Shown here: positions 955 to 51,759 of the stretch, in pieces | Layout: every line of letters begins with the position of its first letter | How positions within the stretch are numbered: the stretch's first letter is position 1 | Origin: Staphylococcus phage Machias | Sequence record: MW349128.1 | DNA: 64,000 nucleotides | Strand: one strand, 5' to 3' | Notes under the pieces: generated by a model | Database searches by the model: none | Told to the model about the DNA's origin: nothing | What the model saw: the letters and a program-made list of their open reading frames with translations, nothing else | Program-made: the position numbers and the translations under genes

Positions 955-1578
955 ATGCCAAAAGAAATAGATTTAACTTCAGAAAAATTTAAAGATTATT
1001 CATATAACGAATTAAACTCAAGAGGTTCACAATTAAAAGATGGTAATTTAGATTTAGAATTTGAATTAGCTTCAGTTAAAAAATACTTTTTAGATAATGT
1101 AAATAAAAATGTAAGATACTTTAAAACTTATAAAGAAAAAATTAACTATTTAGTAGATAATGATTATATTGATGGAGATATGATCAAAAATTATGATTTT
1201 GAATTTATTAAAGGATTAATGAAAGAATTAATGGCTTATAAACATAGATTCACTCGTTTATTAGGAGCTAAAAAATTCTATGAACAGTATGCAATGAAAG
1301 ATGATGCAGGAGAAATCTTATTAGAACTATATGAAGATAGAATTTTATTTGTAGCTTTATATTTAGCTGACGGTGATGAAGAATTAGCTAGAAATATTGC
1401 TAATGAAATTATTACAGGAACTTTCCAACCTGCCACACCAACATTCCTTAATGCAGGTAGAGTACGTTCTGGAGAATTAGTAAGTTGTTTCTTATTAACT
1501 ATGGAAGACTCTTTATCATCTATTTATAGAAATATCTCTAATGTAGCTCAATTAAGTAAACGTGGTGGAGGCGTAGGT
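955..1578 (+). CDS. nrdE: Ribonucleotide reductase class Ib large subunit NrdE, exon 1 (ends after ...SKRGGGVG)
   Basis: ATP-cone-less class Ib N-terminus; conserved GGGVG block at ~1567-1578; the reading frame then runs into intron sequence (KLYTFH stop); exon ends on a U. Confidence 0.8.
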
Positions 1579-2560
1579 AAACTATATACGTTTCATTAAG
1601 ATTTTTGAAAATTATAAATCTTAAATGATACTAATGCCTACGAAAAATCGTGTGAACTCATACTAAAGGGGTGTCTAATTATAATAATTAGGCTAACGGT
1701 CATAGCAGTTAATTATGCTGGTAAGAGAGACTAAGTCCTATTAAATTGATAGGATAGAGTTAATACCGTGCCAAGCTTTATACTATTCATAGCTTCTAGA
1801 TGGGAGCTTGATAAAATGAAAGAAAATGAAATATTTAAACAATTAGAAGAATTTCCAGACTATGATTTTGGTAGTCATGGAACTATAATATCTTATAAGA
1901 CTAAAAATCCTAGAAAAATTATACCCAAGATTGATAAGAATGGTTATCATGAAGTAGGATTGAGAGATTATACAAATAAAAGAAAATACAGAAAAGCACA
2001 TAGACTTATTCTATTAGCACATAATTATATAGAAAATTCAGAAGATATGCAAGTAAATCATATAAATGGTAAACCAGATGACAATCGTTTATCTAATTTA
2101 GAATGGTGTACATCTAAAGAAAATATGAAACATGCATATAATATTCTTAGTAAAAATAAAGATAATAATAAATTTAAAATAGAAGTTTTGATTAAAGATA
2201 AAAATGATAATATTTTTAATTTTGAATCTATGAGTAAAGCTTCAGTATTTATCAAAAGTTCTGTTGGTGGTCTAAGATCTTTCTGGGTTAGAAGAAAAAG
2301 ACCTACAAATGAATTTATTAAATATAAAGATTATGATATAATGTTTAAGCCTAGTGAAAACTGGATTAAAGAATATGGAAAAGAAATTGTTTAAAGTTAT
2401 GAATAGTAAATTGAAGGTGTAGAGACTATCGAAAAGAAAGTTTAATTACTTTACTTAGTAGAGTAGGTCAGAGATTAGTACTGATCGAAGTGCATGGCAT
2501 ATTATTTTAAATAATATGAAGATATAGTCCACTCATTATAGAAATATAGTGGTTAAAGTG
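1579..2560 (+). mobile_element. Group I intron nrdE-I1 (~980 nt) carrying an HNH homing endonuclease ORF
   Basis: Interrupts NrdE between GGGVG and ISLSNLRA; R-like GTAGAGACTATCG (~2420) and S-like AAGATATAGTCC (~2518-2529) elements, P7 pairing GACTA/TAGTC; 3' end ...aaagtg| ~31 nt after S; internal HNH ORF. Confidence 0.7.
1768..2394 (+). CDS. Intron-encoded HNH (HNH_3 / AP2-like) homing endonuclease; true start may be M at ~1813
   Basis: HGTIISYKT...NGYHEVGL...KAHRLILLAHNYIENSEDMQVNHINGKPDDNRLSNLEWCTSKEN is a classic HNH motif of I-HmuI/I-TwoI-type phage endonucleases; lies inside the nrdE intron. Confidence 0.7.
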   Translation: MPSFILFIASRWELDKMKENEIFKQLEEFPDYDFGSHGTIISYKTKNPRKIIPKIDKNGYHEVGLRDYTNKRKYRKAHRLILLAHNYIENSEDMQVNHINGKPDDNRLSNLEWCTSKENMKHAYNILSKNKDNNKFKIEVLIKDKNDNIFNFESMSKASVFIKSSVGGLRSFWVRRKRPTNEFIKYKDYDIMFKPSENWIKEYGKEIV

Positions 2561-2683: not shown

Positions 2684-2845
2684 TAATTTTAATGGCTCAG
2701 TATAAATATTGTTAATTGCTGGAAAAGTTTACAAGCTTAATCAGCATCAATCAAGATGATTGTTCAACGACTAAATATAATAATACTTATTAATAGTATA
2801 AGATATAGTCTAATCTATATGAATTTCATATAGTTAATATAAATG
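2684..2845 (+). mobile_element. Mini group I intron nrdE-I2 (~162 nt, ORF-less)
   Basis: P ATTAATTGCTGG (2712-2723), Q TTAATCAGCATC (2746-2757), R GTTCAACGACTAAAT (2762-2776), S AAGATATAGTCTAAT (2800-2814); ends ...ataaatG| at 2845; splices VNQLG to QRNGAGALYLNIFH. Confidence 0.7.
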
Positions 2846-9800: not shown

Positions 9801-10002
9801 TGATGAAACTCGTTCTATCATGAATACAGAATTGAATTCTTATTTAACTCGTTATGTATCTAACCGTAGTTGTGAAACTATTCAAGCTGAAGTTAGTGCT
9901 GATGAATATGATAAAGCTCAACGTATCGTACGTGTACGTATTTCTGTTAAATTCAACAATGTTATTGAACGTATCTTCATTGATATCAATGTTGAAAAAT
10001 AA
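6853..10002 (+). CDS. Large (1049 aa) probable virion structural protein (function unassigned)
   Basis: Strong RBS gaaaggaagg; codon usage less AT-skewed (highly expressed look); followed by a strong terminator; no catalytic motifs. Confidence 0.5.
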   Translation: MADFMYLHPSVQTQVNSYQNNFQTAEGPVTLFAADTFEKGKDGVIDFVGTEEEFIFKYGEPNYAKYGQTAYNMVNWLRSGGQAYVLRVLPQNATYSHAILNVQSRVQRKGKKVLTEANELVEIDDVKIRPTIAFVKKNNRNIEELVNEISLDRTAEQTVDGYNNNFLLLAYPNGRGESYNDLGIRLTLNTSYDTSGRTERVYNLEVLDFDEFGNVNVIDGPFLVTFDTDSISDTGESMFIEEVVNRYSKYINIKFNLENFQRLAEQINPYVHPASIDVISGRSKVGLDGNPETFYSEITKDSEDVHVSLQRYNNKGIPVTINGQPVLNKPDFNDPVENALISLDNGIREKSFVTDSDRLSYMRDQYKTLRSDKFSEFKSILNKIIVPNGGLFVDDAGDLPKTIKENLVSDKLTQEDVTANIEDEEAVEKELAEKFKPSEINFGGKPSGVVSELVENYKTYFEDSNEENLSAVLASSEEIGSLLLNEFLDNGNKLNAAYELVYKSNSGISSNPKYQADVKELRDVLSQKDQIRIFGIQHKSNILDITNDIAELRIGMKSVTNIEGMSKVLNDTETELKYVTDNLIPAVKEGLPEDAIKFINTVPDEDGDGEREIVSPESMLNRIADCQLLIDDVRVGLMEDNATNREEVYTACNEIANQLVDLINRAVSVSSTYKVARAVRIAANTIYYDIAIFRKNIDEMIQTRSNYTERDITSNAHQNIELAVANLNKANSKYFNTNLIDVASPVKFLFGSDGDFSYENDLSYSERKNAVNRELIKAYKGLIDEDLTNTKAVPFDVVLDARYSNEVKFAISELAKNNRKDFVFLADTVTDRYPVSPEDAIKWRKEEFAVSSEYTAIYSQDLTYYDEYTGRDIRFTPTYRLASMIPYQAVNSGLHFPIAGPRRGLVEGHKALSWAPNEPYKEKLYTSKINYIEKDIDRTKFGSQMTSIKSDGPLSNLNNIFTLNQIKRDAETLVSDYQFELNDDETRSIMNTELNSYLTRYVSNRSCETIQAEVSADEYDKAQRIVRVRISVKFNNVIERIFIDINVEK

Positions 10003-10023
10003 TAGTTTAATATAAACCCATTA

Positions 10024-10059
10024 TAGGATACGACAATGTAAGTCGTATCCTATTTTTTA
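10024..10059 (+). terminator. Rho-independent terminator
   Basis: AGGATACGAC-aatgtaa-GTCGTATCCT followed by TTTTTT. Confidence 0.7.
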
Positions 10060-10181
10060 TTTATAAATTTTAAAATATAAAAGATATTATCTTATAATTA
10101 TTTATACTAATATGAAGTTAATATAAACTCTTTATTATATATCATTATGGATAAATATTTATGAAAAGGAGAAAATAATCT

Positions 10182-10988
10182 ATGATTTTACCAAGTAAGA
10201 ATCAGCGTGTGTTTGATAATAACATCGCTAAAAATAAATGGTTCTACAATGGCCATATGAACTTACAAACTCTTGAGTTTGATCCGTTCGTAACTGGTTA
10301 CAGCTTTATCGTATGGACTAAAGTTCCTTCATGGGTTGAAAAACAATTCCCTGGATTTAAAGCTATGACTCAAAAGAACTTTAAATCATTCCAAGGTTTA
10401 GAAAATATTGAATTAACTACAAATGATTATATGCATACATTTAACGGTAATAACTATCGTACTGCTGCATCTATCACTAAAGGAAACACTGGTTTCCAAA
10501 TGACTCACCAAGAATTCTCTGGTAGTCCAATTAAAAATATGTATCAATATTGGGTATCTGGTATCCGTGATCCTCGTACTGGTATTGCAACTTATCCTAA
10601 AATTCATAATTTAGAATATGCTGCTAAGAACCATACAGGAGAATTACTATACATCCAAACTCGTCCTGATGCTAATAACACTAGTAAAAATAATATTGAA
10701 TTTGCTGCTTACTATACAGCTGTTATGCCTACTCGTATTAGCATTGATCACCATAACTATACTATGGAAACTCACGAAGAAGTTCAAATTGAACAAGATT
10801 TCGCAGGTAATATGGAAATCTCTGCTCGTGTAAATGACTTCGCTAAGTCTAAACTTAAAGAAGTATACAGCTTCGTTGAACAAGGTATGTTTGATCCTAA
10901 TGCACCTAAAGAAGCAGGAGCTCAGCTTTCTGACTTTGATTATAACAAAGGTGGAATTACAGGTTCAGGTAACGGAGATATTAAATAA
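10182..10988 (+). CDS. hypothetical protein (268 aa), possibly structural
   Basis: Strong RBS aaaggag; follows the large structural-like gene; terminator downstream. Confidence 0.5.
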   Translation: MILPSKNQRVFDNNIAKNKWFYNGHMNLQTLEFDPFVTGYSFIVWTKVPSWVEKQFPGFKAMTQKNFKSFQGLENIELTTNDYMHTFNGNNYRTAASITKGNTGFQMTHQEFSGSPIKNMYQYWVSGIRDPRTGIATYPKIHNLEYAAKNHTGELLYIQTRPDANNTSKNNIEFAAYYTAVMPTRISIDHHNYTMETHEEVQIEQDFAGNMEISARVNDFAKSKLKEVYSFVEQGMFDPNAPKEAGAQLSDFDYNKGGITGSGNGDIK

Positions 10989-11004
10989 TTTTAGCAATAA
11001 AAAT

Positions 11005-11040
11005 CCCCTAACACATTTATTTGTGTTAGGGGTTATATTT
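11005..11040. terminator. Bidirectional terminator between convergent genes
   Basis: CCCCTAACAC-atttattt-GTGTTAGGGG flanked by A/T runs on both sides. Confidence 0.6.
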
Positions 11041-13202
11041 TAATAATTTATTCTAGAGTATATGTGACATAATGTTATAATATCTAAATTCTCAGTTTCA
11101 TTCAATAATCTGTCTTTCCAATTTTCTCCGAGATCGTATATTGTTTCACCAATTTCACTTTCAGTAAAATTCTGTAGCGGAACTAATTTAGCGTCATACT
11201 TATTAAATTTGTTAATATATCCATCATAAGTATAATCTTGACTCAGATATTTAATGGATTCAAATACAAAAGGTTTAAATATCATATATCTATCAAATTG
11301 CATATCATCATGTATCATTAAAATTTTAGGTAAATAATGAGATTTTATTGGGAAAGAAATATCTAAATTCTGTATTGGATTTTTATATCTAATATCGAAT
11401 TCTAATTTTCTAGTGTTATAATCAAATTCATTAATAGCATAATATATAGGAGGTTTTTCTATATAAAACTCAATATTATCTTCAGTATCTATATATTCAC
11501 TAATACTTCTAAATGATCTTGATTTTTCACCATCAATATTATTTAATTCATCATCATTATTTGTTTCTACATAATCCTTAAATATGAAATAATGATCTTT
11601 AAGATTAGGGTATAATAATGCTTTTGGATTGACATCTGAATGTTTTTCAATGGTATTTGAATTTATTATCAATGAGTCAAATAAAAAATTATTTTCATCA
11701 GACACTGTTATTTTAATTTCATTTTCTTTTTTCAGATATACTTCTTTAATACGATCATCTATACCTATATCAGTATTTCTCTTATATAAAGATAATGTAC
11801 ATAAATCATTATGATCTCCATATACTTTAGCTAAGTAATTTTTACCATTTATACTAATTATTGCTTCTTCTTTTTTATTATTAACTTCATTCCTATTTTT
11901 TCTTCTAAACAGTAAATTGAATGTGTACATTCCGGATTCAGTTAATTTGATTTCATTTTTAAGTGTACCTGTTAAAATTGTAAATTTATTGTTCATTCTA
12001 TTAACTTCATCAATAGAAGTTAATTTACCATCTATCTTTACAGTTTCTAAAATATTTCCAGTACCCATATTTAATGAATCATTATCTACATAAAAATCAC
12101 TCATTGGAATTATAGTACGAGTGCCAATCTTAAAGTCGTTATAAGTTTTAACATAAAAAGGATTTTTGGATTCAGGAACTTCAGTCTCTTGAAGTATAAT
12201 AATATCTATATCATTATTTTTAGTAGAGAATCTTTCATCGTATTCAAATTTAAACGTATGTTTTCCTTTTTCCAAATACAATGGTACTTCTTCATAAAAT
12301 TCATTTTCTGAATCTCTATAAAATTCTAATATAGATCTATTCCATATAAATTCCCTATCTGTCGGAGATCTAAAATAGTACCCTACATTATCTACAAATA
12401 CTTTGTTCACTGTACCATTACTAAAATGGTTTCCATTTTTACATCTAATTTCATAATAAGAAGAATTAGGAATATAAATGTTCATTTCCAATATTCCATC
12501 CTCAATAGTTACATAACCTTCTCCAAGAAATCTATCATATCCTGATTTTCTTTTATAAGCTCCATCAAAGTTACTTTCCCTTGTTTTATATATATCACCT
12601 AGATATGCATCATAAAATATCCTACCGTCATCTAATAATCCTTCATGTATTAGTCCATCTATAATTTCAGATTCTTTTAATACTTTACGATTATAAGCAT
12701 AATCTTTAGGATACTTTCTATTATCTTGATATATTGGTGGGTAAGGTTCGATTTTCACTTCCTTTCTTTCTATACTATTAAAAGACAAATCTTCATATTC
12801 TATATTCCCTATGAAGTTTGTGTCATAAATTCTCTCTGTTTTACCTAAATAATTATAGAATATAGTAAATAAGTCATATTTTAATTCACCAATAATTTCA
12901 TAAGGTCTTTCTTCATATACTAAAATATCTGAAGAAATATCCTCTAATCTAAAGGTTGGATTCTCTAAACCATATTCACTTTTGATATAATCTTCTGATT
13001 TTGGAATATCAAGTGTATTATCTTCATTAAATGTAAATTTATTATATTCCTCAGAATTAGATTCCACTCTTAATATTAATTTATCACTTTTCTTTGTTTT
13101 AGTTTCGATTAAAGTTTTATTTTCATTATCTTTAATTTTAGTTATTACAATGTCTCCAGAATTGTGTTTATCAATTAATTCTTCTATTCTATATAATTTC
13201 AT
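11040..13202 (-). CDS. hypothetical protein (720 aa), leftward virion/tail module
   Basis: Long ORF, last gene of the minus-strand block. Confidence 0.5.
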   Translation of the reverse strand: MKLYRIEELIDKHNSGDIVITKIKDNENKTLIETKTKKSDKLILRVESNSEEYNKFTFNEDNTLDIPKSEDYIKSEYGLENPTFRLEDISSDILVYEERPYEIIGELKYDLFTIFYNYLGKTERIYDTNFIGNIEYEDLSFNSIERKEVKIEPYPPIYQDNRKYPKDYAYNRKVLKESEIIDGLIHEGLLDDGRIFYDAYLGDIYKTRESNFDGAYKRKSGYDRFLGEGYVTIEDGILEMNIYIPNSSYYEIRCKNGNHFSNGTVNKVFVDNVGYYFRSPTDREFIWNRSILEFYRDSENEFYEEVPLYLEKGKHTFKFEYDERFSTKNNDIDIIILQETEVPESKNPFYVKTYNDFKIGTRTIIPMSDFYVDNDSLNMGTGNILETVKIDGKLTSIDEVNRMNNKFTILTGTLKNEIKLTESGMYTFNLLFRRKNRNEVNNKKEEAIISINGKNYLAKVYGDHNDLCTLSLYKRNTDIGIDDRIKEVYLKKENEIKITVSDENNFLFDSLIINSNTIEKHSDVNPKALLYPNLKDHYFIFKDYVETNNDDELNNIDGEKSRSFRSISEYIDTEDNIEFYIEKPPIYYAINEFDYNTRKLEFDIRYKNPIQNLDISFPIKSHYLPKILMIHDDMQFDRYMIFKPFVFESIKYLSQDYTYDGYINKFNKYDAKLVPLQNFTESEIGETIYDLGENWKDRLLNETENLDIITLCHIYSRINY

Positions 13203-13814: not shown

Positions 13815-14005
13815 CCTGGTTTGTTAAATCTTGATTTTATATATTAAATATAAAGGCAAGACCTTGTATAAAATACACTTGGCTCAGTGACTAACGTATA
13901 AGGGAACCCTTATACTCCTTGTAAAGCTAATCGGACATTAGCTTATCACCCGTTTATCGTCTCCCGCTACCCGCAGGCGACTCTCATATCTTTTATTTTG
14001 TGAGA
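13815..14005 (-). ncRNA. Candidate TnpB guide (omega/right-end) RNA scaffold
   Basis: Only markedly GC-rich, stem-rich stretch in the region; stems read on the minus strand (as transcribed): AAGCTAAT/ATTAGCTT, GTATAAGGG/CCCTTATAC; lies directly 3' of the tnpB stop, where IS605 omega-RNAs map. Confidence 0.4.
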
Positions 14006-15199
14006 TTAAACATATTTTAAATCTAGAATATTTTTAGCTGCATTTAAATCTCTATCAAGAACTACATCACAATTAGGACAATCATGAGTATCATCACCTA
14101 AAACTAATTTCTCTTTATTAGTTCTAACATAACCACATGATGAACATGTCTGTGTAGTCTTTTTCTTAGTAATAATATTTAATTCATTATCATAAAAATT
14201 AGATTTAAATTTTAATTTTTCTAAAAAATCATACTTACCAAATCTTCTATTAGAACGTCTAAGATTTCTGAATCTATCAGATATTTTATGTGGATATGGT
14301 TCTATATTGATTACTTTATAATTTTTAACTAACCAATTAGTAATTTTGTCCCTATGATCTTCCAACATATCATATTCTCTATTATAAGACTTTCTTAATT
14401 GTTTTAAAAGTTTGTAATATGATTTTGAATAATATTTTTTTCTATCTAATTTAGATTTAATTTTTTCAGTTTTTCTTTCTTGTTTCCATAGAATATTCGG
14501 TATTTTAAATTCAAATACTTGACCGTTTGAGTCTACAGCAGCTAAAGGAGTTTTTATCCCCATATCAATACCAATTGAATAATTATTTTCTCTCTGTTTC
14601 TTATAATTGATTATCTCATAAGTTATAGAGATGTAGAATTTTTCATTCTTTCTGCTTATGGTGTAATATTTAAAATTAATATCGTTAGAGTTAATAAATT
14701 TTAAAGATTCCTTAGTTTTAATAACAAAAGGTTTAATTCCTTTCATTGCAGAAACTCTTATCCATTTTTTAGATAAAAATTTTACAGGTAAACTTAGTTT
14801 ATCTTTAACTATAAATCTAAATGAATCGTTAGAATATTTTTTCTTTTTAAATTTAGGTTTAAATTTATCACTATCTATATAATTTTTAGATTTTCTAGCT
14901 TTACTCTGCATTTCATAGTATTTAGAAAAAGTCTGATTTAGATCTTTTAAAGCTTCTTGTCTAACCATACTATTAACTTCATAAAGATAAGGATAATTTC
15001 CAGAATTTTGAATTTCGTTGTTTAATTTCTTTTGAAAATCAAATCCACTAAATTTCTTATCATCATCAATATTCTGATAATCTTCTAAAGCCATATTCCA
15101 TACTTTTCTTCTTACACCAAAGCATTTATTGAAATAATTCTTTTGGTCTTGATTTGGGTATATTCTAGTTTTGAAAGATTTAACTATTCCTTTTTTCAT
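14006..15199 (-). CDS. tnpB: TnpB (IS200/IS605-family OrfB) RNA-guided-nuclease-like protein, 397 aa
   Basis: RuvC-I GIDMGIKTPLAAV, zinc finger CSSCGY...CPNCD, RuvC-III DRDLNAAKNI; strong RBS aggaggtg; no tnpA present. Confidence 0.85.
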   Translation of the reverse strand: MKKGIVKSFKTRIYPNQDQKNYFNKCFGVRRKVWNMALEDYQNIDDDKKFSGFDFQKKLNNEIQNSGNYPYLYEVNSMVRQEALKDLNQTFSKYYEMQSKARKSKNYIDSDKFKPKFKKKKYSNDSFRFIVKDKLSLPVKFLSKKWIRVSAMKGIKPFVIKTKESLKFINSNDINFKYYTISRKNEKFYISITYEIINYKKQRENNYSIGIDMGIKTPLAAVDSNGQVFEFKIPNILWKQERKTEKIKSKLDRKKYYSKSYYKLLKQLRKSYNREYDMLEDHRDKITNWLVKNYKVINIEPYPHKISDRFRNLRRSNRRFGKYDFLEKLKFKSNFYDNELNIITKKKTTQTCSSCGYVRTNKEKLVLGDDTHDCPNCDVVLDRDLNAAKNILDLKYV

Positions 15200-15249
15200 T
15201 GTTTAATTTCACCTCCTAATCATATTATATAAATATGTTAGGAAATTCC

Positions 15250-15300
15250 TGATATGAATTTTTTATCAGTATTTTATACAATCTCTAAATTAGTAATTTA
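15250..15300 (-). repeat. IS605-type left-end subterminal hairpins
   Basis: Perfect palindromes CTGATAtgaattttttATCAG and CTCTAAATTagtAATTTAGAG just 5' of tnpB. Confidence 0.4.
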
Positions 15301-15304
15301 GAGC

Positions 15305-15410
15305 ACAGACTATATCATACTCATTGATATGAGTGAATATATTTAGTCGTTGGACAAGTCTTATTGACTTGATGCTGATTGAGATAATAATCTATTCCAG
15401 CAATTAATAT
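15305..15410 (-). mobile_element. Group I intron catalytic core (mini-intron family copy) on the minus strand
   Basis: Reverse complement contains ATTAATTGCTGG, AATCAGCATC, GTCCAACGACTAAAT, ATGATATAGTCT in the same order and spacing as the other mini-introns. Confidence 0.65.
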
Positions 15411-15442
15411 TCTTTGCTAATTAAAATTACTTTTAATAGGGA

Positions 15443-16354
15443 CTATTTGTGTGAATAATCCGGATAATACATTGATGCACCATCTAAATGTTCCATAAAG
15501 TTACCTACAATACCACCAATAACTGGCATATTTGCTACCATATCATTAATACTATCTTTAATAGTTCTAGTAATTTTACCTAAAATAGAAGCTCCACCAA
15601 TACGAGCCATTTCTTTTTGTTCTCGTATTTCTTGGTTTTTATTATTAACTTGAGAAGCAATATCAGATTGATTATATTCATGCATTGCAGATTCTGATAT
15701 ACTAGTTGATTTATCTGCATAGTAAGCTAGTCCATAGTTTTTATCATCTTGTAGAGATCCACCTAGATCAAATGATCCTTTTAAACCCATTGATGCATGA
15801 ACTTGAGAAGCCATAGTTTGTACGTATTTATAATATTCAGCCATTTTAGGTTCAAAGCTTATCATACGACCATCTTTAGTATTACCGATACCTACTAAAG
15901 ATAAACCAGAGTTTACTAATCTATCCATTCCTTCACCAAAACTCCATAATTTACCTTCTCCTGGTTTACCAAATAATTTACCATTTAATTTAGGCATACC
16001 CGGCATTATAAATACTAAAGGTAAATCTAATTCAAATGTTCTTTTATATATTCTTCTATTAGGATCATCTAAACTAGAATAGTACATAGGCATTCCAAAT
16101 ACATCTAGTTCACCTTTAACATTTCTTAATTGTTTTTTATCTTTAGCATTTTTATCTGTTAAATATTCAGTTGCTTGTCTTTGATTACCCAAAGCATCCA
16201 TAAAAGCACCAGTATCTTTTTGAGTAGGATCATATTCATGATAGTCATAATCACCTTTTTTCTCATCAGCTTGAGGTATTAAAGCCATATCATCATCTGC
16301 CACTTTTAAAGGTTCTTGTTCCTTAGACTCTTTTTTATCTTTTTCTTCAGCCAA
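15443..16354 (-). CDS. hypothetical protein (303 aa; TTG start) of the leftward virion module
   Basis: ORF from the track; its stop lies ~9 nt before the predicted 5' end of the IStron-like intron. Confidence 0.5.
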   Translation of the reverse strand: MAEEKDKKESKEQEPLKVADDDMALIPQADEKKGDYDYHEYDPTQKDTGAFMDALGNQRQATEYLTDKNAKDKKQLRNVKGELDVFGMPMYYSSLDDPNRRIYKRTFELDLPLVFIMPGMPKLNGKLFGKPGEGKLWSFGEGMDRLVNSGLSLVGIGNTKDGRMISFEPKMAEYYKYVQTMASQVHASMGLKGSFDLGGSLQDDKNYGLAYYADKSTSISESAMHEYNQSDIASQVNNKNQEIREQKEMARIGGASILGKITRTIKDSINDMVANMPVIGGIVGNFMEHLDGASMYYPDYSHK

Positions 16355-43998: not shown

Positions 43999-44274
43999 TT
44001 ATTTCTTACTGTCTAATTCAGCTAATTTTAATTTAGCTTTAGTCGCATATTTTTGACGGATTATATCACGCCATTTTTTACGAGCACGAGCAGCTTTTTG
44101 ATATTTAAAGTAAATTGGATCTTGAGCTTCTTTAGCAGCAACTAAAGCTAATTGGTTCAATCTACGTTTACGTTTAGTTTGTTCATCTAAACGCATGATA
44201 TTTTGCTCACGTAAAAGAGCTTCATCAGTAGCTTTCATAATTTGCTCTTCTAGTGGAGATAAATTATTAGACAA
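43999..44274 (-). CDS. small basic protein (91 aa)
   Basis: K/R-rich ORF on the minus strand. Confidence 0.4.
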   Translation of the reverse strand: MSNNLSPLEEQIMKATDEALLREQNIMRLDEQTKRKRRLNQLALVAAKEAQDPIYFKYQKAARARKKWRDIIRQKYATKAKLKLAELDSKK

Positions 44275-44406
44275 AATATTTCACATCTCTTTCTTAGATT
44301 TATTTAGTTTATTAATAAATAGTATGTTTTGTTAATGATAGTTTAAAAATTTTAATAATAAAGAATAACTAGATTTTTATAATTATGTAGGAGGTTAGTA
44401 AACCAA

Positions 44407-45430
44407 ATGACAACAGAATTAAAGAATAAAGAAGAAAGAAAAAGAGCTTTAACTGGATATTTAGAACAATTGGTATGGATGGTTCAAAAGAATAATCCTG
44501 ATTTTGATAAAGAAGAAATATTAAAAGAATGTAGAGAATTTGTAAAAGAAAATGTTAAACCTGTTATGACAGAGGTATCAGGTCAAGAAATGAATGTTGA
44601 TTCTTTATTACGTACAGTTATTAATTCAAATTTAATAGTAACTGGATCAGGTTCGATTTATCAAACACAATCACAAAGAAAAAATTTAAATGCAGAGATG
44701 TTAAAAGACTTCATTGATTCACGTAAAGTAGCTAAACATAATATGTTTATAAGTAAAGGTGTAGACGATGTTAAATATCATAAATATATGAATGAACAAA
44801 AAACAATTAAGATCTTGGCTAATAGTTACTATGGTGCTATGATACAAGGAAATAGTATTTTCTATGATCCTTATTCAGGACCTGCTATCACATATAGTGG
44901 TGTTGATATTGTTACGACTTCAGCAATAGCTTTAGAAAGATTTATAGGTAGTAAAATATTCTTTATGAATATTAGTGAGATTTATAATTATATCGTAAGA
45001 ATATGTCAAGAAGAATATAAAGATCATGATATTAAGATAAATTCAGTTCCTACTGATAATGAAATATTAAAAGGTTTATTGGATAACGTAGAATATAATT
45101 TCTCTGAAGATGAAGAAAATGATTTAAAAGAATTCTTTAGTAATTTAACTCAAGATGAGAAAAATAGAGTTTATTTTAAAAATAATCTTTATGGTTTATT
45201 AGATCACACTGATATATTTGATAATAAAATTAGTAAAATGACAGGTAGAGAAGATTTCTTAGATCCGAACGAACCACCTGAAGATATGATACCATTATTA
45301 GATGAATTATTTGATATATTAGAAGACTGGGTTATTTATAATTATCAAGATTACAATAGAATGTATAGAATGAATTATAAAAAACGTAGAAGTGTACTTA
45401 CAATCGATTATGATAACATGGTCGCTGCTT
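44407..45430 (+). CDS. Family-B DNA polymerase, C-terminal half, exon 1 (motif B to motif C); no exonuclease/motif-A region in this gene
   Basis: Kx3NSxYG motif KILANSYYGAM; following IFYDPYSGPAITYSGVD (compare RB69 FRYYDLRNATAITTFGQ); motif-C-like VLTIDYDNM at the very end; strong RBS taggaggt means it is an independent start. Confidence 0.65.
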
Positions 45431-45591
45431 AAAGTAATTTAAGTTGATTCACATTATTAATTGCTGAGAAAGTATTTATTAAATTAATCAGCATCAATCA
45501 ATATGATTGTTCAACGACTAAATATAATGATACTCATAAAGAGTATATGATATAGTCTATTTTATATTTAAAAATATAATATTAAAGACAG
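45431..45591 (+). mobile_element. Mini group I intron polB-IA (3' end uncertain: 45591, 45603 or 45612)
   Basis: 5' aaagtaatttaagttgat..., P TTAATTGCTGAG, Q TTAATCAGCATC, R GTTCAACGACTAAAT, S ATGATATAGTCTAT; the in-frame continuation has no stops. Confidence 0.6.
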
Positions 45592-45840
45592 ATAGTAACT
45601 TCGTACATTTAGATCCATTATATCAAAAAATGAAAGAAAAGAAACCTGAAGATTTCCCTATTGCAGAAAATGGTTTAGAAGATAAATTAGAACAACGTGT
45701 AGGTAATATATCTATTATTAACTATCAAATTACTAAATTGCTAGAATTATCTTATCATAGATTCTGTAAAGATTTAGGATTAGAAGATGAACATTTAGGT
45801 GTTATATCTATGAAAAATGAGTATGTAAATGCTCCAGTAT
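45592..45840 (+). CDS. DNA polymerase B exon 2 (~83 aa)
   Basis: Open frame ...LDPLYQKMKEKKPEDF...NEYVNAPV joining exon 1 and exon 3 in frame. Confidence 0.55.
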
Positions 45841-45996
45841 ACAGTAATGTGTATTAGTAAATATTATTAATTGCTGAGACAAAATAAAATTAATCAGCAT
45901 CTTCAAATAATGAAGTTCAACGACTAAATATAATAATTCTTAATAATAAAGAATATGATATAGTCTAGTCTTATATTTAAAATATAAGTATAAACG
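45841..45996 (+). mobile_element. Mini group I intron polB-IB
   Basis: 5' acagtaatgtgtatt..., full P/Q/R/S set; 3' end ...ataaacG|; the E2(t)+tt+E3 junction reads ...NAPV-F-LLDKQ in frame. Confidence 0.65.
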
Positions 45997-46697
45997 TTTT
46001 ACTTGACAAACAGTTAACAACAGATAAAAAGAAAACTTATGCTTCATCAGTAATTCAACAAGAGGGTAATTTAGTTCAACCACCAGACTTAGATGTTAAA
46101 GGTATGGCTATTAGAAAAGTTAATACTAATAAACGTATTAGAGAATTATTTACTGAAATATTACAAAAAGATATCTTAGAAAATAAAACTGGAATTGATA
46201 GAATTGGAATTATACGTAAATATAAAGAAATTGAAGAAATGATTAAAAAATCATTAGAGAATGGTGATATTGAATTCTTAAAACCTGGTAAAGCTAATAA
46301 CGCAGAAGTATATAAAGATCCTTATACACAAATGAATTATAGAGCAGCTTTATCATGGAATTTAATGTATCCAGATAAAGAAATATCTCTTCCAGCAAAT
46401 ATCTTAATGGTTAAATTAAATATTAAATCATTTGGAGATATTAAGGATAAAGTTGATGATGAAGAATTATTAGATAAATTTAGAGAAGTATTTAGAAACG
46501 AAAGATTAGTTAAAAATGGAATGAATGTAATTGCAGTTGAAGGTAATACAATTCCTGAAGAATTTAGACCTTTTATTGATTATGATTCAATGATAGAAGA
46601 TCATATTAAACCAGGTAAAGATATTATTGAATCTATTGGAGTTAAAGTGTTAGAATCTTCAAATAGTTCTTTCGTATCAAATATGGTTAAATTTTAA
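45997..46697 (+). CDS. DNA polymerase B exon 3 (C-terminal thumb; KGxxxRK = KKRY-like motif)
   Basis: ...PPDLDVKGMAIRKVNTNKR... in the same frame as the track ORF 46104-46697, open upstream to the splice site. Confidence 0.6.
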
Positions 46698-46720
46698 AAA
46701 AAAAAAGGAGGGTATATTTA

Positions 46721-47224
46721 ATGAGATACTTTTTATTTAAACCTAAAAAGTTTCAAGAACTATTTGAAACTGAAAAGAAATTATCATCTGTCTTTGAATA
46801 TTATAGAGATATGAAAAAAGATATTGTATTTAAAGTTGATGAAAATGATGATATTTTTATGATGTTATATAATATTTTAAGTGATGAAATATTACCTTTT
46901 ATAAGATGTAAAGTATACAATAAAAAAGATGGAGAAATACTAAAAGCATCAGAATTATATGTCCCTATTAGTTTGGATATTCATAAAGAAATAAATATAA
47001 ATAAAAATAGTATAGAGTATGATTCTAACATGCCTTATAAACATGGTTTAATTGAATGTCCATCTATTGACGAAGATAATACTAACAATTATCTTCGTTT
47101 AAATTTTCAATATAATGACAAAGATGATTATTTTTATATTTACTTAAATGATATTTATGCTATTTTTGAAGAGATAGATAAAACAGAATTTATGAAAATA
47201 GAAACTAAAAAGAATTTTATGTAG
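46721..47224 (+). CDS. hypothetical protein (167 aa)
   Basis: RBS aaaggaggg. Confidence 0.45.
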   Translation: MRYFLFKPKKFQELFETEKKLSSVFEYYRDMKKDIVFKVDENDDIFMMLYNILSDEILPFIRCKVYNKKDGEILKASELYVPISLDIHKEININKNSIEYDSNMPYKHGLIECPSIDEDNTNNYLRLNFQYNDKDDYFYIYLNDIYAIFEEIDKTEFMKIETKKNFM

Positions 47225-47283
47225 ATTGAAAAAATTTATTATTTTCATATAAAAATTCTTGCTTAATTTTTAATTTTATGTTA

Positions 47284-47300
47284 AAATATATATTATAAAA
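47284..47300 (+). promoter_or_regulatory. Promoter-like motif AAATATATATTATAAAA (copy 2)
   Basis: Exact 17-mer, 62 nt upstream of the 47362 start. Confidence 0.45.
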
Positions 47301-47361
47301 ACGAGAATATGTCACTATTAAAATTAAACTTATTCTTAATAAATTTGGAGAGTGAAAAGAA

Positions 47362-48672
47362 ATGGCAAAACAATCAGATGTATTTAGTAAAAAGAAATCA
47401 TTATATAGAAAAAATGGTAGAAAAATACCTTCTAAGTTTAGAAAGATGGATGTAGATGGTACTTGGTTTTATAGATTTGATCATAATAGATTTATCATTG
47501 ATAATTTAACTAGATTTATGGAAGATAAAGAATTAAAAAAATTATTAAATGATTATAGAAATAATTATGATAATAAAGAAAAATTTAATAATGATTGTTA
47601 CTTCTTTGAATTAGATAAAGATATACCTAAATTAAATAAATCTCAATTAAAGATATTCTTCACTCATTTATCTAGAAAACATATTGGAAAAGATTTCTTA
47701 AAAAATATTACTTTGAAAGATAATTCTAAATTAGAAATAAAAGAATTTGATGATTTAGAAATATGGTCAAGAGAACCTGATAAAGAAGAAGTATATGACG
47801 TTGGTTATCTTGATATGAAAGATTATAGAATGATTGCTCATATTGATCATGAAAATGAAGAAATTGTTATTCATACAGATATTGAAGAAGAAAATCCAAA
47901 ATCATATAGTACTTTAATTAGTTCTTTAGAATCAATTGAAATTGATGATTATTATGAAGATATTAGCTCTGATGAAATAAGAATTAAATTAAATGACTTT
48001 AATTTAAGAAAAGTATTTAATAAGACTAATAGTAAAATATTTAAAGTTATTTTACCAGTTACTTATAATTATGAAGGTTTTGATGATCAAGTGTCCTTCT
48101 TATTTGATAATTTCAGTAAAACATATATTAAACAACTTGAAAAAGAAGAATACGATAAGAAAATGCCTATCGGAGGACAACCTTATCATTTAAGACCTGA
48201 AAATAGACCTTATTATGCTAAACGTAGAATAATTAAAGATTGGAATATTTATGAAATATTTGATGAAGATAAAGATGGATATAAATTATTCAGTGTTAAA
48301 GATGATCAAGGGTTTATTTATTTAATATACTATATTGGTAAGAATTATCATGGTAAAGGTATAATAGTTAACGGTAAAGAATCTCCAGAACTTCAAGATC
48401 CGTCTAATTATAGAAAATCAGTTAAATTAAAAGATATTTATTACAGTGTATTAATTTCACAAGCTAAATATAATCTAATGAAGAAAAATAAATTTGATAT
48501 TTATACAGCTTTTGATACATCCAACCCTAAATATATGACAATTTCAGATGAAGAAAATATTCATACAACTGATTTCTTAATACCTGAAAGACCATTTAAA
48601 ATTAGACAAACTAAATTTAGAGAAGATAAAATATCAAATTTAAAAGATAAATTCGTAGAGGAGTTTGAATAG
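47362..48672 (+). CDS. hypothetical protein (436 aa)
   Basis: RBS ggagagtg. Confidence 0.45.
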   Translation: MAKQSDVFSKKKSLYRKNGRKIPSKFRKMDVDGTWFYRFDHNRFIIDNLTRFMEDKELKKLLNDYRNNYDNKEKFNNDCYFFELDKDIPKLNKSQLKIFFTHLSRKHIGKDFLKNITLKDNSKLEIKEFDDLEIWSREPDKEEVYDVGYLDMKDYRMIAHIDHENEEIVIHTDIEEENPKSYSTLISSLESIEIDDYYEDISSDEIRIKLNDFNLRKVFNKTNSKIFKVILPVTYNYEGFDDQVSFLFDNFSKTYIKQLEKEEYDKKMPIGGQPYHLRPENRPYYAKRRIIKDWNIYEIFDEDKDGYKLFSVKDDQGFIYLIYYIGKNYHGKGIIVNGKESPELQDPSNYRKSVKLKDIYYSVLISQAKYNLMKKNKFDIYTAFDTSNPKYMTISDEENIHTTDFLIPERPFKIRQTKFREDKISNLKDKFVEEFE

Positions 48673-48675
48673 TAT

Positions 48676-49410
48676 ATGGAGGATAATGAATATATGTATA
48701 CAGAAGATGAAATGAATACAGGTCATATAGTTGCGGATTGTGATGAAGTTTTAGTCAATATATCGCCAAAGATAGTTCAATTAATGCATGAAGATTATGA
48801 ATATTATAATCAATTCTTTAGATTATCTGAAGATTTTGATTATAATAAACATTATGATGTAATATTAAGTAGACCTGAATACTATATAGATCAATGGTTA
48901 GTTAGAAAAGATGTTTATAATAACTTTTCAGAAAAAGAAGTTAATGAAGCAAGAGAAAGACTACAAAATGAAATTATATTTAAAAAAGATTTATATGATG
49001 AACTTCAACCAACTAATTTAGGTAGAAGTTTATCATATACCATTAATACACCGTTAATGAATAAATTAACTATCGTTACTAAAACTTCAGATAATAATCT
49101 AAAATCTAAAGAGAAGTTTTTAAAAACTTTATTTAGAGGAAGTATGGATAAAGTTGATATATTCTACTTAGAACCAGATGAGAAAAAATCTGATGTGATT
49201 AATTCTTTAGGATATGTTACTAGAATATATGAAGATGAAGTAAGTAATATTAGTGATATTATAAAGAACTGTCAAAATGTAACACAAACAGGAATTGATA
49301 TTCCTTCATTGGGATATAATCAAGATATCGATGAAGGAACGATATTAAAAGCTAAAGAAAAGAAAATTGATTTAAACTATTTCAGTTATATGGGACAAAG
49401 TATTAAATAA
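48676..49410 (+). CDS. HAD-superfamily 5'(3')-deoxyribonucleotidase-like protein (NT5C-like)
   Basis: N-terminal HIVADCDEVLVNISPKIV resembles HAD motif I (DxDxV) of NT5C-family enzymes. Confidence 0.4.
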   Translation: MEDNEYMYTEDEMNTGHIVADCDEVLVNISPKIVQLMHEDYEYYNQFFRLSEDFDYNKHYDVILSRPEYYIDQWLVRKDVYNNFSEKEVNEARERLQNEIIFKKDLYDELQPTNLGRSLSYTINTPLMNKLTIVTKTSDNNLKSKEKFLKTLFRGSMDKVDIFYLEPDEKKSDVINSLGYVTRIYEDEVSNISDIIKNCQNVTQTGIDIPSLGYNQDIDEGTILKAKEKKIDLNYFSYMGQSIK

Positions 49411-49805: not shown

Positions 49806-50979
49806 ATGAAAGTAGATATGATAGATATTGAACAAGTCATAACTGATACAAATGCTAAAGAAGTAACCAATCCTGTATTTTTCGATTCAGGTATACTACC
49901 AAAAGAAGATGGTTTATTTTCATATGATATATTTGGTTTAATAGGTACTCCTGAAAGAAAAACCAATTTAGGTTGGATTAATTTAAAGGATAAATACCTT
50001 AATCCGGTGGCTTATAAAGCATTAAAAGATTTAGATAAAAATATTGAACTATGTATTCAGGGTTCAGAGTATTTTAAAGTAGAAAAAGGTCAATTAGTTC
50101 CTTCAGAAGATGGAGATACTGGACTGAATTTCTTATATGAAGTATTTGATGATTTAAAATTTAGAAAGAATGATTCTCGTATTAGATCTGAAAAAATTGA
50201 TATGATTAAAAATACAGATAAGCAAAAAATATTTGTAGATAAATGGCTAGTAATACCTGCTTTTTATAGAGACTTTAATCCTAATGAAACTTCAGGAGAA
50301 ATTCAAGATACTGAAGAAGTTAATAATATGTATTCTTCTATTATACGTTCTGTAGATGCTATTAGTTTTAATTCTTTTGGTTTTATTGCTAACAGTACTA
50401 AATATAATATACAAAATACATTATTTGAAATATATCAGAAATTTACTTCAGGAGAATTATCAGGTAAAACTGGTTTTATGCAAAAACGTATATTGGGTAA
50501 AACAGTAGATAATAGTACTCGTGCAGTTATTTCTTCACCTAAAATTAATTCGAATAGATGGGATGAAATGCAGATAGAGTTTGGTGAGTTAGGTGTACCA
50601 TTAACTCAATTAGTTACCTTATTTTTACCATTCTTTAATAAGTATATAATTGATTTTATTGAACTTCATAAAGATGCTTTCCAAACAGCTACTGGAAATG
50701 ATGAGAAAGAATTATCATTAGAAGAAGTGTATGAACAATTCGATGATAAATCTATTAAGAATATGCTAGAATTCTTTATTAAAGATCCTAATGAAAGATT
50801 TAGTCCTATATATGTAAATGATAGAGAAGGTAAACGCCATAAAGTTAAATTATTTGAAAAAACTTTGGGTAGAGATTTTACTGTAATTGATTTACTTTAT
50901 ATTGCTGCAACCGAAATAGTAGAAGATAAGCATGTTATGTATTCAAGATATCCGATTAATAAAATGGTCGCTGCTTAAA
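49806..50979 (+). CDS. Multisubunit RNA polymerase beta-prime-like subunit (N-terminal half), exon 1
   Basis: LPKEDGLFSYDIFG (compare KPERDGLFCERIFGP), GWINLKDKYLNPV (compare GHIELASPTAHIW), KRILGKTVDNSTRAVISSP (compare GKRVDYSGRSVIVVGP); no Zn finger, as in phiKZ/AR9-type phage RNAPs. Confidence 0.7.
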
Positions 50980-51140
50980 GTGATTTAAGTTGATAAACAT
51001 TGTTAATTGCTGAAATACTATTAATAAAGTTAATCAGCATCAATTAAATATAATTGTTCAACGACTAAATGCAATGATACTATTTAATAGTATATAATAT
51101 AGTCTAATTTATATAATACTTATATAAATATAATAAATGC
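50980..51140 (+). mobile_element. Mini group I intron rpoC'-IC (3' end uncertain, 51139-51156)
   Basis: 5' aaagtgatttaagttgat..., P/Q/R/S set, S at ~51100-51108, ...ataaatG at 51139. Confidence 0.6.
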
Positions 51141-51341: not shown

Positions 51342-51491
51342 AAAATTTTATATTACCATCATTAAATAATATTAATTGCTGGAAAATCTAATAAGATAAT
51401 CAGCATCAACTTAATAAAAGTTGTTCAACGACTAAATATATTACTAAAGAAGATATAGTCTAATTATATGTAAATACATGTATATAAAATG
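51342..51491 (+). mobile_element. Mini group I intron rpoC'-ID, splitting the DFDG|D catalytic motif
   Basis: P ATTAATTGCTGG 51372, Q, R GTTCAACGACTAAAT, S AAGATATAGTCTAAT ~51450-51464; ends ...aaaatG| 51491; next exon begins DMISIRSLWSVEA (compare [14 protein letters not shown]). Confidence 0.65.
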
Positions 51492-51617: not shown

Positions 51618-51759
51618 AAGTTTGTATGCTCTCAATAAATTTCATTAATTGCTGGAAAAACAAAATTAATCAGCATCAACTTAATAAAAGTTGTTCAACG
51701 ACTAAATATGAAAATGATTTAAATATCATAAGATATAGTCTAATTATCATAAATATATG
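51618..51759 (+). mobile_element. Mini group I intron rpoC'-IE
   Basis: 5' aagtttgtatgctc..., P AATTGCTGG 51647-51655, Q, R, S ~51730-51744, ...aaatatatG|. Confidence 0.55.

What the first reader, a model, noticed from the sequence alone, without database searches (positions are those of the whole stretch)
2684..2845. Family of unusually small (~150-165 nt) ORF-less group I introns spread to at least seven sites
There are copies at 2684-2845 (nrdE), 15305-15442 (minus strand, IStron), 45431-45591, 45841-45996 (polB), 50980-51140, 51342-51491 and 51618-51759 (beta-prime gene). All share ATTAATTGCTGR ... TTAATCAGCATC ... GTTCAACGACTAAAT ... (A)AGATATAGTCTA, i.e. textbook group I P, Q, R and S core elements with P4 (TGCTG/CAGCA) and P7 (GACTA/TAGTC) pairings, within ~160 nt. 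That is at or below the size of the smallest known self-splicing group I introns. They may therefore lack peripheral domains and depend on a protein cofactor, or some may be splicing-defective remnants. Their number and similarity point to recent intragenomic spread.
Basis: partly seen in the sequence, partly recalled or inferred. Interest (0 to 1): 0.7.

Follow-up and report, generated by a model that had tools for sequence, protein, structure and literature searches.

The report
Miniature group I introns, jumbo phage
Six essential-gene interruptions in this Staphylococcus jumbo-phage window are real group I introns of only 142-183 nt, about half the usual ribozyme size, and a seventh copy is the ribozyme part of a transposon-intron hybrid; similar small introns were recently reported in gut jumbo phages, so this is a compact variant of a known kind.

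Summary
The window is from a Staphylococcus aureus jumbo phage, 95-98% identical to AH12 and PB50. It has exactly seven copies of one compact group I core.

Intron-less alleles in phages S6 and PB50 fix the exact boundaries:
- nrdE 2684-2845 (162 nt)
- polB 45409-45587 (179 nt) and 45823-45996 (174 nt)
- virion RNA polymerase beta-prime 50957-51139 (183 nt), 51342-51491 (150 nt) and 51618-51759 (142 nt)

The seventh copy is the 5' ribozyme of a 1,642-nt IStron (15457..13816, minus strand) that carries TnpB.

P3, P6 and P8 covary, and P4 and P7 are invariant. Of the cells, 99.5% are paired, and 11 of 27 pairs show compensatory changes. All seven end in G. Six follow a U that pairs with G in P1. 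Removing the introns restores intact NrdE, PolB and beta-prime reading frames.

Individual copies lack P2, P5, P8 or P9. Rfam scores them at 22-38 bits, below its threshold of 50.

Relatives carry about 10-34 copies per genome, and copies differ in presence between near-identical phages. Hundreds of similar cores occur in uncultured 200-400 kb phages.

Small jumbo-phage group I introns (about 206 nt on average) with transcript support were published in 2025-26. I therefore rate this a new variant of a known kind. Self-splicing remains untested.

The parts
2684..2845 (+). nrdE mini-intron, 162 nt, no P2. P1: 2678-2683 (CTGGGT) with 2695-2700 (GCTCAG). P3: 2707-2712 with 2777-2782. P4: 2717-2722 with 2741-2746. 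P6: 2748-2762. P7: 2769-2773 with 2806-2810. P8: 2783-2799. P9: 2815-2833. Terminal G at 2845.
   Evidence: Rfam Intron_gpI scores it 37.7 bits. The spliced NrdE is 733 aa with no stop. Pfam Ribonuc_red_lgC matches positions 1-33 in exon 1 and 75-523 in exon 3, which leaves 41 positions for the 41-codon exon 2.
45409..45587 (+). polB mini-intron 1, 179 nt, with a P2 hairpin (CTTAAA-GTAA-TTTAAG). P1 is CGAT with GTCG. It splits the polymerase TID|TDS motif.
45823..45996 (+). polB mini-intron 2, 174 nt, with a P2 hairpin (TATACA-GTAA-TGTGTA). P1 is GAGT with GCTC. There is no P5.
   Evidence: It is precisely absent from PB50, which is 96-97% identical in the flanks.
50957..51139 (+). Virion RNA polymerase beta-prime mini-intron 1, 183 nt, with a P2 hairpin (GUGA loop). 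P1 is CGAT with GTCG, the same guide and target as polB intron 1.
51342..51491 (+). Beta-prime mini-intron 2, 150 nt, with no P2 and no P8. It splits the catalytic ADFDG|D motif. The last exon base is C rather than U, giving a C.A mismatch opposite the guide.
   Evidence: (34.2 bits)
51618..51759 (+). Beta-prime mini-intron 3, 142 nt, with no P2, no P5 and no P9. P1 is GAGAGT with GCTCTC. P10 is GTAC with GTAT.
   Evidence: (27.8 bits)
13816..15457 (-). IStron, 1,642 nt, in a virion-protein gene. The ribozyme module of the same family (P1 GGAT/GTCC, P2 with GUAA loop, core 15412-15305) lies at 15457-15305. The TnpB ORF is at 15199-14006. A GC-rich stretch that resembles a guide RNA lies at about 14000-13880. 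A 3' hairpin and the terminal G (13816) close the element.
   Evidence: OrfB_IS605, Cas12f1-like_TNB; PB50 empty site TATCCCGAT|GTTTGGATG

Best explanation
**What they are.** These are miniaturised group I introns, reduced from the IA2-like type common in phages. They are transcribed inside essential phage genes and removed from the pre-mRNA by the standard group I pathway.

**Splicing mechanism.**
1. The last 4-7 exon bases pair with an internal guide to form P1, with a U.G wobble at the cut site.
2. A stripped-down core holds a guanosine pocket in P7. The core consists of:
   - P3 (6 bp) stacked on P8 (5-6 bp);
   - P4 (6 bp) with a vestigial or absent P5;
   - P6 (4-6 bp);
   - P7 (5 bp), pseudoknotted with P3.
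3. Free guanosine attacks the 5' splice site.
4. The terminal G of the intron then takes its place, and the exons are joined.

**Shown versus inferred.**
- Shown: the family, its structure with covariation, its exact boundaries, and the in-frame restoration of the genes.
- Inferred: that splicing occurs, and that it follows this chemistry.
- Open (roughly even odds): whether the RNA splices alone or needs a phage or host helper. The RNAs are about 20% G+C. The P2-less copies have no recognisable peripheral tertiary clamp.

**Spread.** The family is mobile on a short evolutionary timescale. The likely routes are recombination between co-infecting phages and occasional moves to new sites that match the 4-6 nt guide.
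For: **Family and structure**
- Exactly seven copies occur in the window.
- On the seven cores, 99.5% of cells pair, against 24-52% when the partner strand is slid by 1-3 columns. Of 27 pairs, 11 show changes on both sides: P3 5 of 6, P8 4 of 5, P6 2 of 5. No shuffle out of 500 reached the observed values.
- The same structure holds in 50 distinct sequences from uncultured phages: 95.8% paired, 17 of 22 pairs compensatory.
- Minimum-free-energy folds recover P1, P2, P4, P6, P7/P8 and P9 unaided, with z-scores of -3.4 and -2.4.
- Rfam Intron_gpI aligns P1 to P9 end to end at 27.8-37.7 bits for three copies, and partially (model positions 50-157) at 22.4 bits for a fourth. E-values on the short stretches run from 4e-8 to 3e-3.

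**Boundaries and host genes**
- Boundaries come from intron-less alleles.
- All seven elements end in G, and six follow U paired with G.
- Spliced NrdE (733 aa), PolB (645 aa), beta-prime (503 aa, zero gaps against the 503-aa S6 protein) and the virion protein (491 aa) are all open.
- The introns cut catalytic motifs (TID|TDS and ADFDG|D), so the gene pieces cannot plausibly work unjoined.

**Comparison with other phages**
- Normal-size phage introns share the same P, Q and R motifs and the same P2 hairpin.
- In gut jumbo phages, 37 of 76 predicted small group I introns had junction reads in metatranscriptomes (PMC12880540).

**Mobility**
- polB2 is absent from PB50.
- The IStron is absent from AH12 and PB50.
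- AH12 has an extra beta-prime copy not in the window.
Against: - There are no transcript or in vitro data for this phage.
- Every copy scores below the Rfam gathering threshold (22-38 bits against 50), and the whole-window scans found nothing.
- bp2 lacks P8 and has C instead of U at the cut site. bp3 lacks P5 and P9. polB2 lacks P5.
- P1 is only 4 bp in the P2-containing copies.
- The helices are almost all A-U, so stability is marginal.
- P10 is weak or absent in four copies.

Any one copy could be inefficient or dependent on a helper.
Confidence: 0.85

Rival explanations
1. They are group I-derived introns that no longer self-splice. Removal would depend on a phage- or host-encoded protein (a maturase-like factor or RNA chaperone) that replaces the lost peripheral RNA domains.
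For: P5 extensions, P7.1/P7.2 and P9.x are lost, and in single copies P2, P5, P8 or P9 is also missing. G+C is 19-22%. P3 is made almost entirely of A-U pairs. P1 is 4 bp in four copies. There is no GNRA loop or receptor pair in the P2-less copies.
Against: The catalytic core junctions (J3/4, J6/7, J8/7) and P7 are strictly conserved. From memory, small engineered derivatives of the phage T4 sunY intron of about 180 nt keep activity in vitro. No candidate cofactor gene was identified.
Confidence: 0.4
2. The P2-containing copies (polB1, bp1 and relatives) are non-autonomous derivatives of the IStron. They would move as DNA through IS200/IS605-type machinery to short target sites (CGAT or GGAT), and the ribozyme would serve only to make insertions harmless.
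For: The IStron ribozyme belongs to the same family (114 bits). polB1, bp1, an AH12 copy in the second beta-prime gene, and the PB50 empty site of the IStron all have insertion after CGAT. Published group A IStrons also insert after a short pentanucleotide and end in CAG-like sequence (PMC4227781). The 3' hairpin of the IStron resembles the P9 hairpin of polB1.
Against: The shared CGAT is equally explained by the shared guide GTCG, which splicing itself requires. The mini-introns do not share the 3' end of the IStron (AAAG, AATG or AACG against CCAG). No TnpA transposase was seen in the window. The IStron carries only TnpB.
Confidence: 0.15
3. They are splicing-dead remnants, and the interrupted genes are expressed as separate polypeptides. 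This would resemble the naturally split RNA polymerase subunits of jumbo phages.
For: PB50 and AH12 annotate the pieces as separate CDSs. Three introns end in an in-frame ATG (nrdE, bp2, bp3).
Against: The breaks fall inside catalytic motifs (ADFDG|D and TID|TDS). No ribosome-binding sequence is apparent ahead of the terminal ATGs, read by eye. The last beta-prime piece would be 10 aa. Exon phase is preserved at every junction. The core shows purifying selection with compensatory changes.
Confidence: 0.04
4. They are a chance or low-complexity AT-rich repeat, or a dispersed regulatory repeat, with no RNA function.
For: The window is 25% G+C, and the Q motif alone is not enriched (11 matches against 11.2 expected).
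Against: The R motif is enriched. The model separates seven hits at 92-116 bits from background at 21 bits. Covariation is strong. Insertion sites are exact relative to empty alleles.
Confidence: 0.01

Closest known systems
Phage group I introns of subgroup IA2 (T4 td/nrdB/sunY, Twort nrdE and orf142, SPO1/Bastille polymerase introns)
   Same: Same P, Q, R and S core motifs. Same kinds of host gene (ribonucleotide reductase, DNA polymerase). Insertion at catalytic motifs. The same GNRA-capped P2 hairpin is seen in normal-size relatives from IMG/VR.
   Different: They are half the size or less: 142-183 nt against a non-coding part of 350 +/- 108 nt in Bastillevirinae (PMC11878797). The defining IA2 hairpins P7.1/P7.2 and the extended P9 are missing. 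P5 is vestigial or absent. There is no endonuclease gene. All score below the Rfam threshold.
Small group I introns of gut 'Jug' jumbo phages (Sci Adv 2026, PMC12880540)
   Same: They are ORF-less, numerous (18.5 per genome there; about 10-34 blastn matches per genome in the Staphylococcus relatives) and sit in essential genes of jumbo phages. About half had transcript support for splicing. My model finds 256 matching cores in 700 kb of uncultured 200-400 kb phage contigs.
   Different: That paper reports a mean of about 206 nt, gives no secondary-structure analysis, and likens the introns to GIR1-like ribozymes. The host phylum differs (Bacteroidota against Staphylococcus). I did not verify that the IMG/VR contigs are Jug phages.
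IStrons (CdISt1 of Clostridioides difficile and relatives; PMC4227781, PMC10690162)
   Same: One of the seven copies is an IStron: a 5' group I ribozyme, then TnpB and a guide-like RNA, inserted after a short target and ending in CAG.
   Different: Published IStron ribozymes have P7.1/P7.2 and P9.0-9.2, and that survey found no free-standing copies of the intron part. Here the ribozyme is the mini type, and free copies outnumber the IStron 6 to 1 in the window. This IStron sits in a lytic phage.
Azoarcus pre-tRNA-Ile intron (about 205 nt, from memory), usually cited as the smallest natural self-splicing group I intron, and the engineered sunY mini-ribozymes (about 180 nt, from memory)
   Same: A compact core with few peripheral elements.
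   Different: Azoarcus is G+C-rich, subgroup IC3, and is held together by two tetraloop-receptor clamps. The phage introns are about 20% G+C, 20-60 nt shorter, and some lack P5, P8 or P9.
Degenerate 56-81 nt 'group I-like' insertions in fungal rDNA (PMC3160393)
   Same: Much smaller than the norm.
   Different: Those have lost the catalytic core. The phage introns keep P3-P4-P6-P7 and all the core junctions.

Membership tests
Group I intron | Core helices P3, P4, P6, P7 and P8, with P3 and P7 forming a pseudoknot | tested here: met
   99.5% of cells paired and 11 of 27 pairs compensatory. One search shows the same in 50 distinct relatives. Exception: bp2 has no P8.
Group I intron | Conserved P, Q, R and S sequence elements in the canonical order | tested here: met
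Group I intron | 5' splice site after a U that forms a U.G wobble with an internal guide in P1 | tested here: met
   Six of seven copies, read directly at boundaries fixed. bp2 has C opposite A instead.
Group I intron | Intron ends in G (omega G) | tested here: met
   Seven of seven copies
Group I intron | Match to Rfam RF00028 at or above the gathering score (50 bits) | tested here: not met
   No hit on the whole window. Scores are 22.4-37.7 bits on short stretches. This is a threshold set on normal-size introns, not a structural criterion.
Group I intron | Guanosine-dependent self-splicing | not testable with these tools
   Needs in vitro transcription and splicing assays.
Subgroup IA2 | P7.1 and P7.2 hairpins between P3' and P8, and an extended P9 (P9.0-P9.2) | tested here: not met
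   Only 6 nt of P3' plus a single P8 hairpin lie between the two P7 strands. There is one P9 hairpin or none. The sequence affinity to IA2-type phage introns is real, but the structural hallmark is absent.
IStron | A group I ribozyme at the 5' end fused to an IS200/IS605- or IS607-family element, the whole unit bounded by splice sites | tested here: met
   This applies to the minus-strand copy only. TnpB domains are, the exact empty site is, and the spliced host ORF is intact. The six mini-introns have no IS part.

The most novel reading that the evidence does not exclude
These would be the smallest natural group I ribozymes that still work. The set includes forms with no P8 (bp2) and forms with no P5 and no P9 (bp3, 142 nt).

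They would multiply within and between jumbo-phage genomes by guide-directed reverse splicing into any transcript that carries a matching 4-6 nt site such as CGAT. The retron-like reverse transcriptase that MarsHill-like phages encode would then copy the product back into DNA.

Where copies pile up they leave micro-exons: 15 nt in AH12, and 12-28 nt in an uncultured 400-kb phage. One short exon must then serve both the P10 of the upstream intron and the P1 of the downstream one, which would force an order on splicing.
Probability: 0.25. Interest if true: 0.8.

Novelty: new variant of a known kind. Interest (0 to 1): 0.55.

Why it matters
- **A tractable minimal ribozyme.** If these RNAs splice, they set a new lower size limit for a natural group I ribozyme, in a phage that can be grown on S. 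aureus. They also offer natural 'deletion mutants' lacking P2, P5, P8 or P9. These could show what the minimal core needs and what a helper protein must supply.
- **Annotation.** Standard tools miss them. Rfam finds nothing on the whole window, and GenBank records of AH12 and PB50 list the gene pieces as separate proteins. Intron load and gene content in jumbo phages are therefore being mis-stated.
- **Mobility.** Related introns sit at unrelated sites that share only the guide-matching tetranucleotide. This is the kind of circumstantial evidence for reverse-splicing transposition so far reported mainly for rDNA introns (PMC3984707).
- **Origin of IStrons.** An IStron built on the same mini-ribozyme links free introns and transposon-intron hybrids within one genome.

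Tried and rejected
- **Whole-window Rfam scans** (gathering threshold, and E-value up to 10) found no group I hit. Only short stretches gave sub-threshold hits.
- **Apparent odd intron at 2395-2560.** I first read it as a second, permuted mini-intron in nrdE. It is the 3' part of a conventional intron (1579-2560) that carries an HNH endonuclease gene.
- **Automatic splice-site inference** for the AH12 copies, using P1 pairing plus open reading frames, was too ambiguous to give a size distribution. Only copies with an intron-less allele or an obvious motif were used.
- **Link to temperature sensitivity.** These phages fail to grow at 37 C, and I considered whether the A-U-rich ribozymes explain this. 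I rejected the idea because intron-poor phage S6 shows the same sensitivity (bioRxiv 10.1101/2020.12.14.422802).
- **Bacterial and archaeal genomes.** The strict pattern scan found nothing. A relaxed scan hit many ordinary group I introns, but only 3 of 80 loci matched the model, and those had 155-160 nt cores.
- **Literature.** Seven size-related phrase variants in two searches found no description of these RNAs. The AR9 genome paper and the Twort nrdE paper are not held. The Jug-phage supplements are not held either.
- **P10.** It is convincing only in bp2 and bp3.

Full report
**Source and context**

The window comes from a Staphylococcus aureus jumbo phage. Region 44000-52000 is 95.6% identical to phage AH12 and 98.1% to vB_StaM_PB50. 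It is about 80-84% identical to MarsHill, Madawaska, LY01, S6, PALS_2, DC4 and SA1. S6, PALS_2, DC4 and SA1 cover only 53% of the query. That pointed to intron-less alleles, which S6 confirmed: its polB and beta-prime genes are uninterrupted. The window is 25% G+C.

**Checking the observation**

- The R-element GTTCAACGACTAAAT occurs six times exactly and once with one mismatch, at the seven stated places. With up to 3 mismatches allowed there are 10 matches against 3.1 expected, and no shuffle out of 100 reached 10.
- The S-element and the Q-element sit in register with it. The Q-element alone is not enriched.
- I built a covariance model (R1) from the seven cores and ran it over the whole window with filters off. 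It returns exactly these seven at 92-116 bits, and the next hit scores 21 bits.

So there are seven copies, no more, and far beyond chance.

**Exact boundaries**

I ran tblastn with the uninterrupted S6 PolB and beta-prime proteins and read the junctions directly.

| Intron | Coordinates | Length |
|---|---|---|
| nrdE | 2684-2845 | 162 nt |
| polB1 | 45409-45587 | 179 nt |
| polB2 | 45823-45996 | 174 nt |
| beta-prime 1 (bp1) | 50957-51139 | 183 nt |
| beta-prime 2 (bp2) | 51342-51491 | 150 nt |
| beta-prime 3 (bp3) | 51618-51759 | 142 nt |

- PB50 lacks polB2. Its alignment jumps from window 45820 to 45997 with 2 nt in between, so exactly 174 nt are missing.
They began at a hairpin that is really P2. 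That also explains why polB1 and bp1 seemed to share an 18-nt '5' exon': the sequence is intron.
- Joining the exons gives open frames for NrdE (733 aa), PolB (645 aa) and beta-prime (503 aa). The beta-prime protein aligns to the 503-aa S6 protein with no gap.
- The introns cut TID|TDS in the polymerase and ADFDG|D in beta-prime.

**Structure**

On the seven cores I tested P3, P4, P6, P7 (as a pseudoknot with P3) and P8.

- 99.5% of cells form standard pairs. With the partner strand slid by 1-3 columns the figure is 24-52%.
- 11 of 27 pairs change on both sides. No shuffle out of 500 reached any of the observed measures.
- P3 covaries in five of its six pairs. The seven versions are TATTGT/ATAATA, CATTAT/ATAATG, TATTAT/ATAATA, CATTGT/GCAATG, TAATAT/ATATTA, TTTCAT/ATGAAA and GAATAT/ATATTC.
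- P4 and P7 never vary.
- Unconstrained folding recovers P1, P2, P4, P5 (where present), P6, P7/P8 and P9.

Two layouts exist.

| Layout | Copies | P1 |
|---|---|---|
| P2 hairpin with GNRA loop (GUAA or GUGA) | polB1, polB2, bp1, IStron | 4 bp: CGAT/GTCG, GAGT/GCTC, CGAT/GTCG, GGAT/GTCC |
| No P2 | nrdE, bp2, bp3 | 6 bp |

- Six of the seven follow a U paired with G. bp2 follows a C opposite an A. All seven end in G.
- Individual copies have lost more. polB2 and bp3 have no P5, only an A-rich loop on P4. bp2 has no P8, with 6 nt between P3' and J8/7. bp3 has no P9.
- No copy has a stop-free stretch above 46 codons. G+C is 19-22%.

**Rfam**

The whole-window scans found no group I match at the gathering score or at E up to 10. 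On short stretches the model aligns end to end for three copies: nrdE at 37.7 bits, bp2 at 34.2 bits and bp3 at 27.8 bits. bp1 gets only a partial alignment (model positions 50-157) at 22.4 bits. The gathering score is 50. The family is recognisably group I but falls under the curated cut-off.

**The seventh copy**

The minus-strand copy is the 5' module of an IStron.

- The empty site in PB50 reads TATCCCGAT|GTTTGGATG. This fixes the element at 15457..13816, 1,642 nt.
- It holds a 397-aa TnpB with the HTH_OrfB_IS605, OrfB_IS605 and Cas12f1-like_TNB domains.
- After the TnpB gene come a G+C-rich stretch that resembles a guide RNA, then a hairpin, then ...CCAG.
- The spliced host gene, a virion protein, is open at 491 aa.
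- AH12 and PB50 lack the element. LY01 has five matching places. One LY01 copy has the same guide (GTCC) and target (GGAT), and compensatory changes in P2 and in the 3' hairpin.

**Copy number and turnover**

- A blastn search with the nrdE intron finds 30 places in AH12, 34 in LY01, 21 in PB50, 10 in MarsHill and 12 in Madawaska. It finds none in S6, PALS_2, DC4 or SA1.
- The model finds 20 copies in the first 149 kb of AH12. One is a beta-prime copy that the window lacks. It leaves a 15-nt exon before bp2.
- Copies within the window are 58-82% identical to each other. The family is therefore not young.
- Presence/absence differences between 96-98% identical genomes show current gain or loss.
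- polB1, bp1 and an AH12 copy that splits NAD|YDGD in the second beta-prime gene all sit after CGAT and carry the guide GTCG.

**Wider distribution**

- A pattern demanding a short Q-to-S distance hit at least 120 loci in IMG/VR, on contigs of up to about 400 kb.
- The model finds 256 cores in 700 kb of these loci, often every 170-230 nt. Covariation there is strong.
- In one 400-kb contig the beta-prime catalytic region is broken by at least eight such cores. Read by eye, the exons between them are 12, 28 and 27 nt long.
- The same strict pattern finds nothing in 185,579 bacterial and archaeal species genomes. A relaxed pattern hits ordinary introns, but only 3 of 80 such loci match the model, and those have 155-160 nt cores.
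- A looser P..Q..R pattern in IMG/VR finds normal-size phage introns with the same motifs and the same P2 hairpin. The mini form therefore looks like a reduction of that type.

**Literature**

- Korn et al. reported that MarsHill-like phage genes are 'intron-disrupted'. They judged this from protein alignments and did not analyse the RNAs. They also noted a retron-like reverse transcriptase and failure to grow at 37 C, a trait shared with S6 (bioRxiv 10.1101/2020.12.14.422802).
- The DC4 paper found no intron with Rfam (PMC10638138).
- The Jug-phage paper reports 2,513 group I introns in 136 of 139 gut jumbo-phage genomes. The mean is about 206 nt, and junction reads supported 37 of 76 (PMC12880540). 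It gives no structures. I could not check whether my IMG/VR contigs are Jug phages.
- Typical sizes elsewhere are 250-500 nt (PMC10964413) and 350 +/- 108 nt of non-coding intron in Bastillevirinae (PMC11878797).
- Reverse splicing needs only 4-6 nt of P1 complementarity and still lacks direct evidence (PMC3984707).
- Published IStrons have larger IA2 ribozymes, and no free intron copies were found beside them (PMC4227781).

**Verdict**

The corrections are:
- three 5' ends were misplaced;
- the size range is 142-183 nt;
- the seventh copy is part of a 1.6-kb IStron;
- the family is older than 'recent spread' suggests, though still turning over.

The best explanation is functional, miniaturised group I introns. 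Whether they splice unaided is open. The phenomenon of small, numerous group I introns in jumbo phages is already published. What appears new is the reduced architecture, including copies without P5, P8 or P9. Also apparently new are the link to an IStron and the presence of the family in a cultivable S. aureus phage.

Noticed in passing
window 1579-2560 (+): nrdE carries a second, conventional group I intron of about 980 nt with an HNH endonuclease ORF (1768-2394, Pfam HNH_3). The 5' splice site follows GGT at 1578 (GGGVG|ISLSNLR) and the terminal G is at 2560. Its 3' part scores 39 bits with Rfam. AH12 lacks this intron.
   Followed up: partly
window 13816-15457 (-): A TnpB-carrying IStron sits in a virion-protein gene of a lytic phage. 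It is absent from the two closest relatives and present at five places in LY01. Its guide-like RNA and 3' hairpin are conserved, with compensatory changes, in the LY01 copy (L130).
   Followed up: partly
L131 (AH12) 11409-11685, minus strand: AH12 has an extra mini-intron in beta-prime just upstream of the bp2 site. This leaves a 15-nt exon (GCTGACTTTGATGGC) between two group I introns. The splice site of the extra copy also seems to follow a C.
   Followed up: partly
L088 (IMGVR_UViG_3300008672_000001) 9900-12300, minus strand: In an uncultured 400-kb phage the beta-prime catalytic region is split by at least eight mini-intron cores. Exons of 12, 28 and 27 nt, read by eye, spell ..HFPIQVCEPLNAD|FDGDTVSIR.
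   Followed up: partly
window 955-1578 compared with AH12 (L132 10275-10903): blastn found no match between the window and AH12 upstream of window position 2566. The slice compared did include AH12's copy of nrdE exon 1. Exon 1 therefore seems much more diverged than the rest of the gene (96% identical), which could mark a recombination boundary at the endonuclease intron.
   Followed up: no
window 2843, 51489 and 51757: Three mini-introns (nrdE, bp2, bp3) end in ...ATG in frame with the downstream exon. This is why ORF callers and the GenBank records start separate CDSs there. No ribosome-binding sequence is apparent upstream, read by eye.
   Followed up: no
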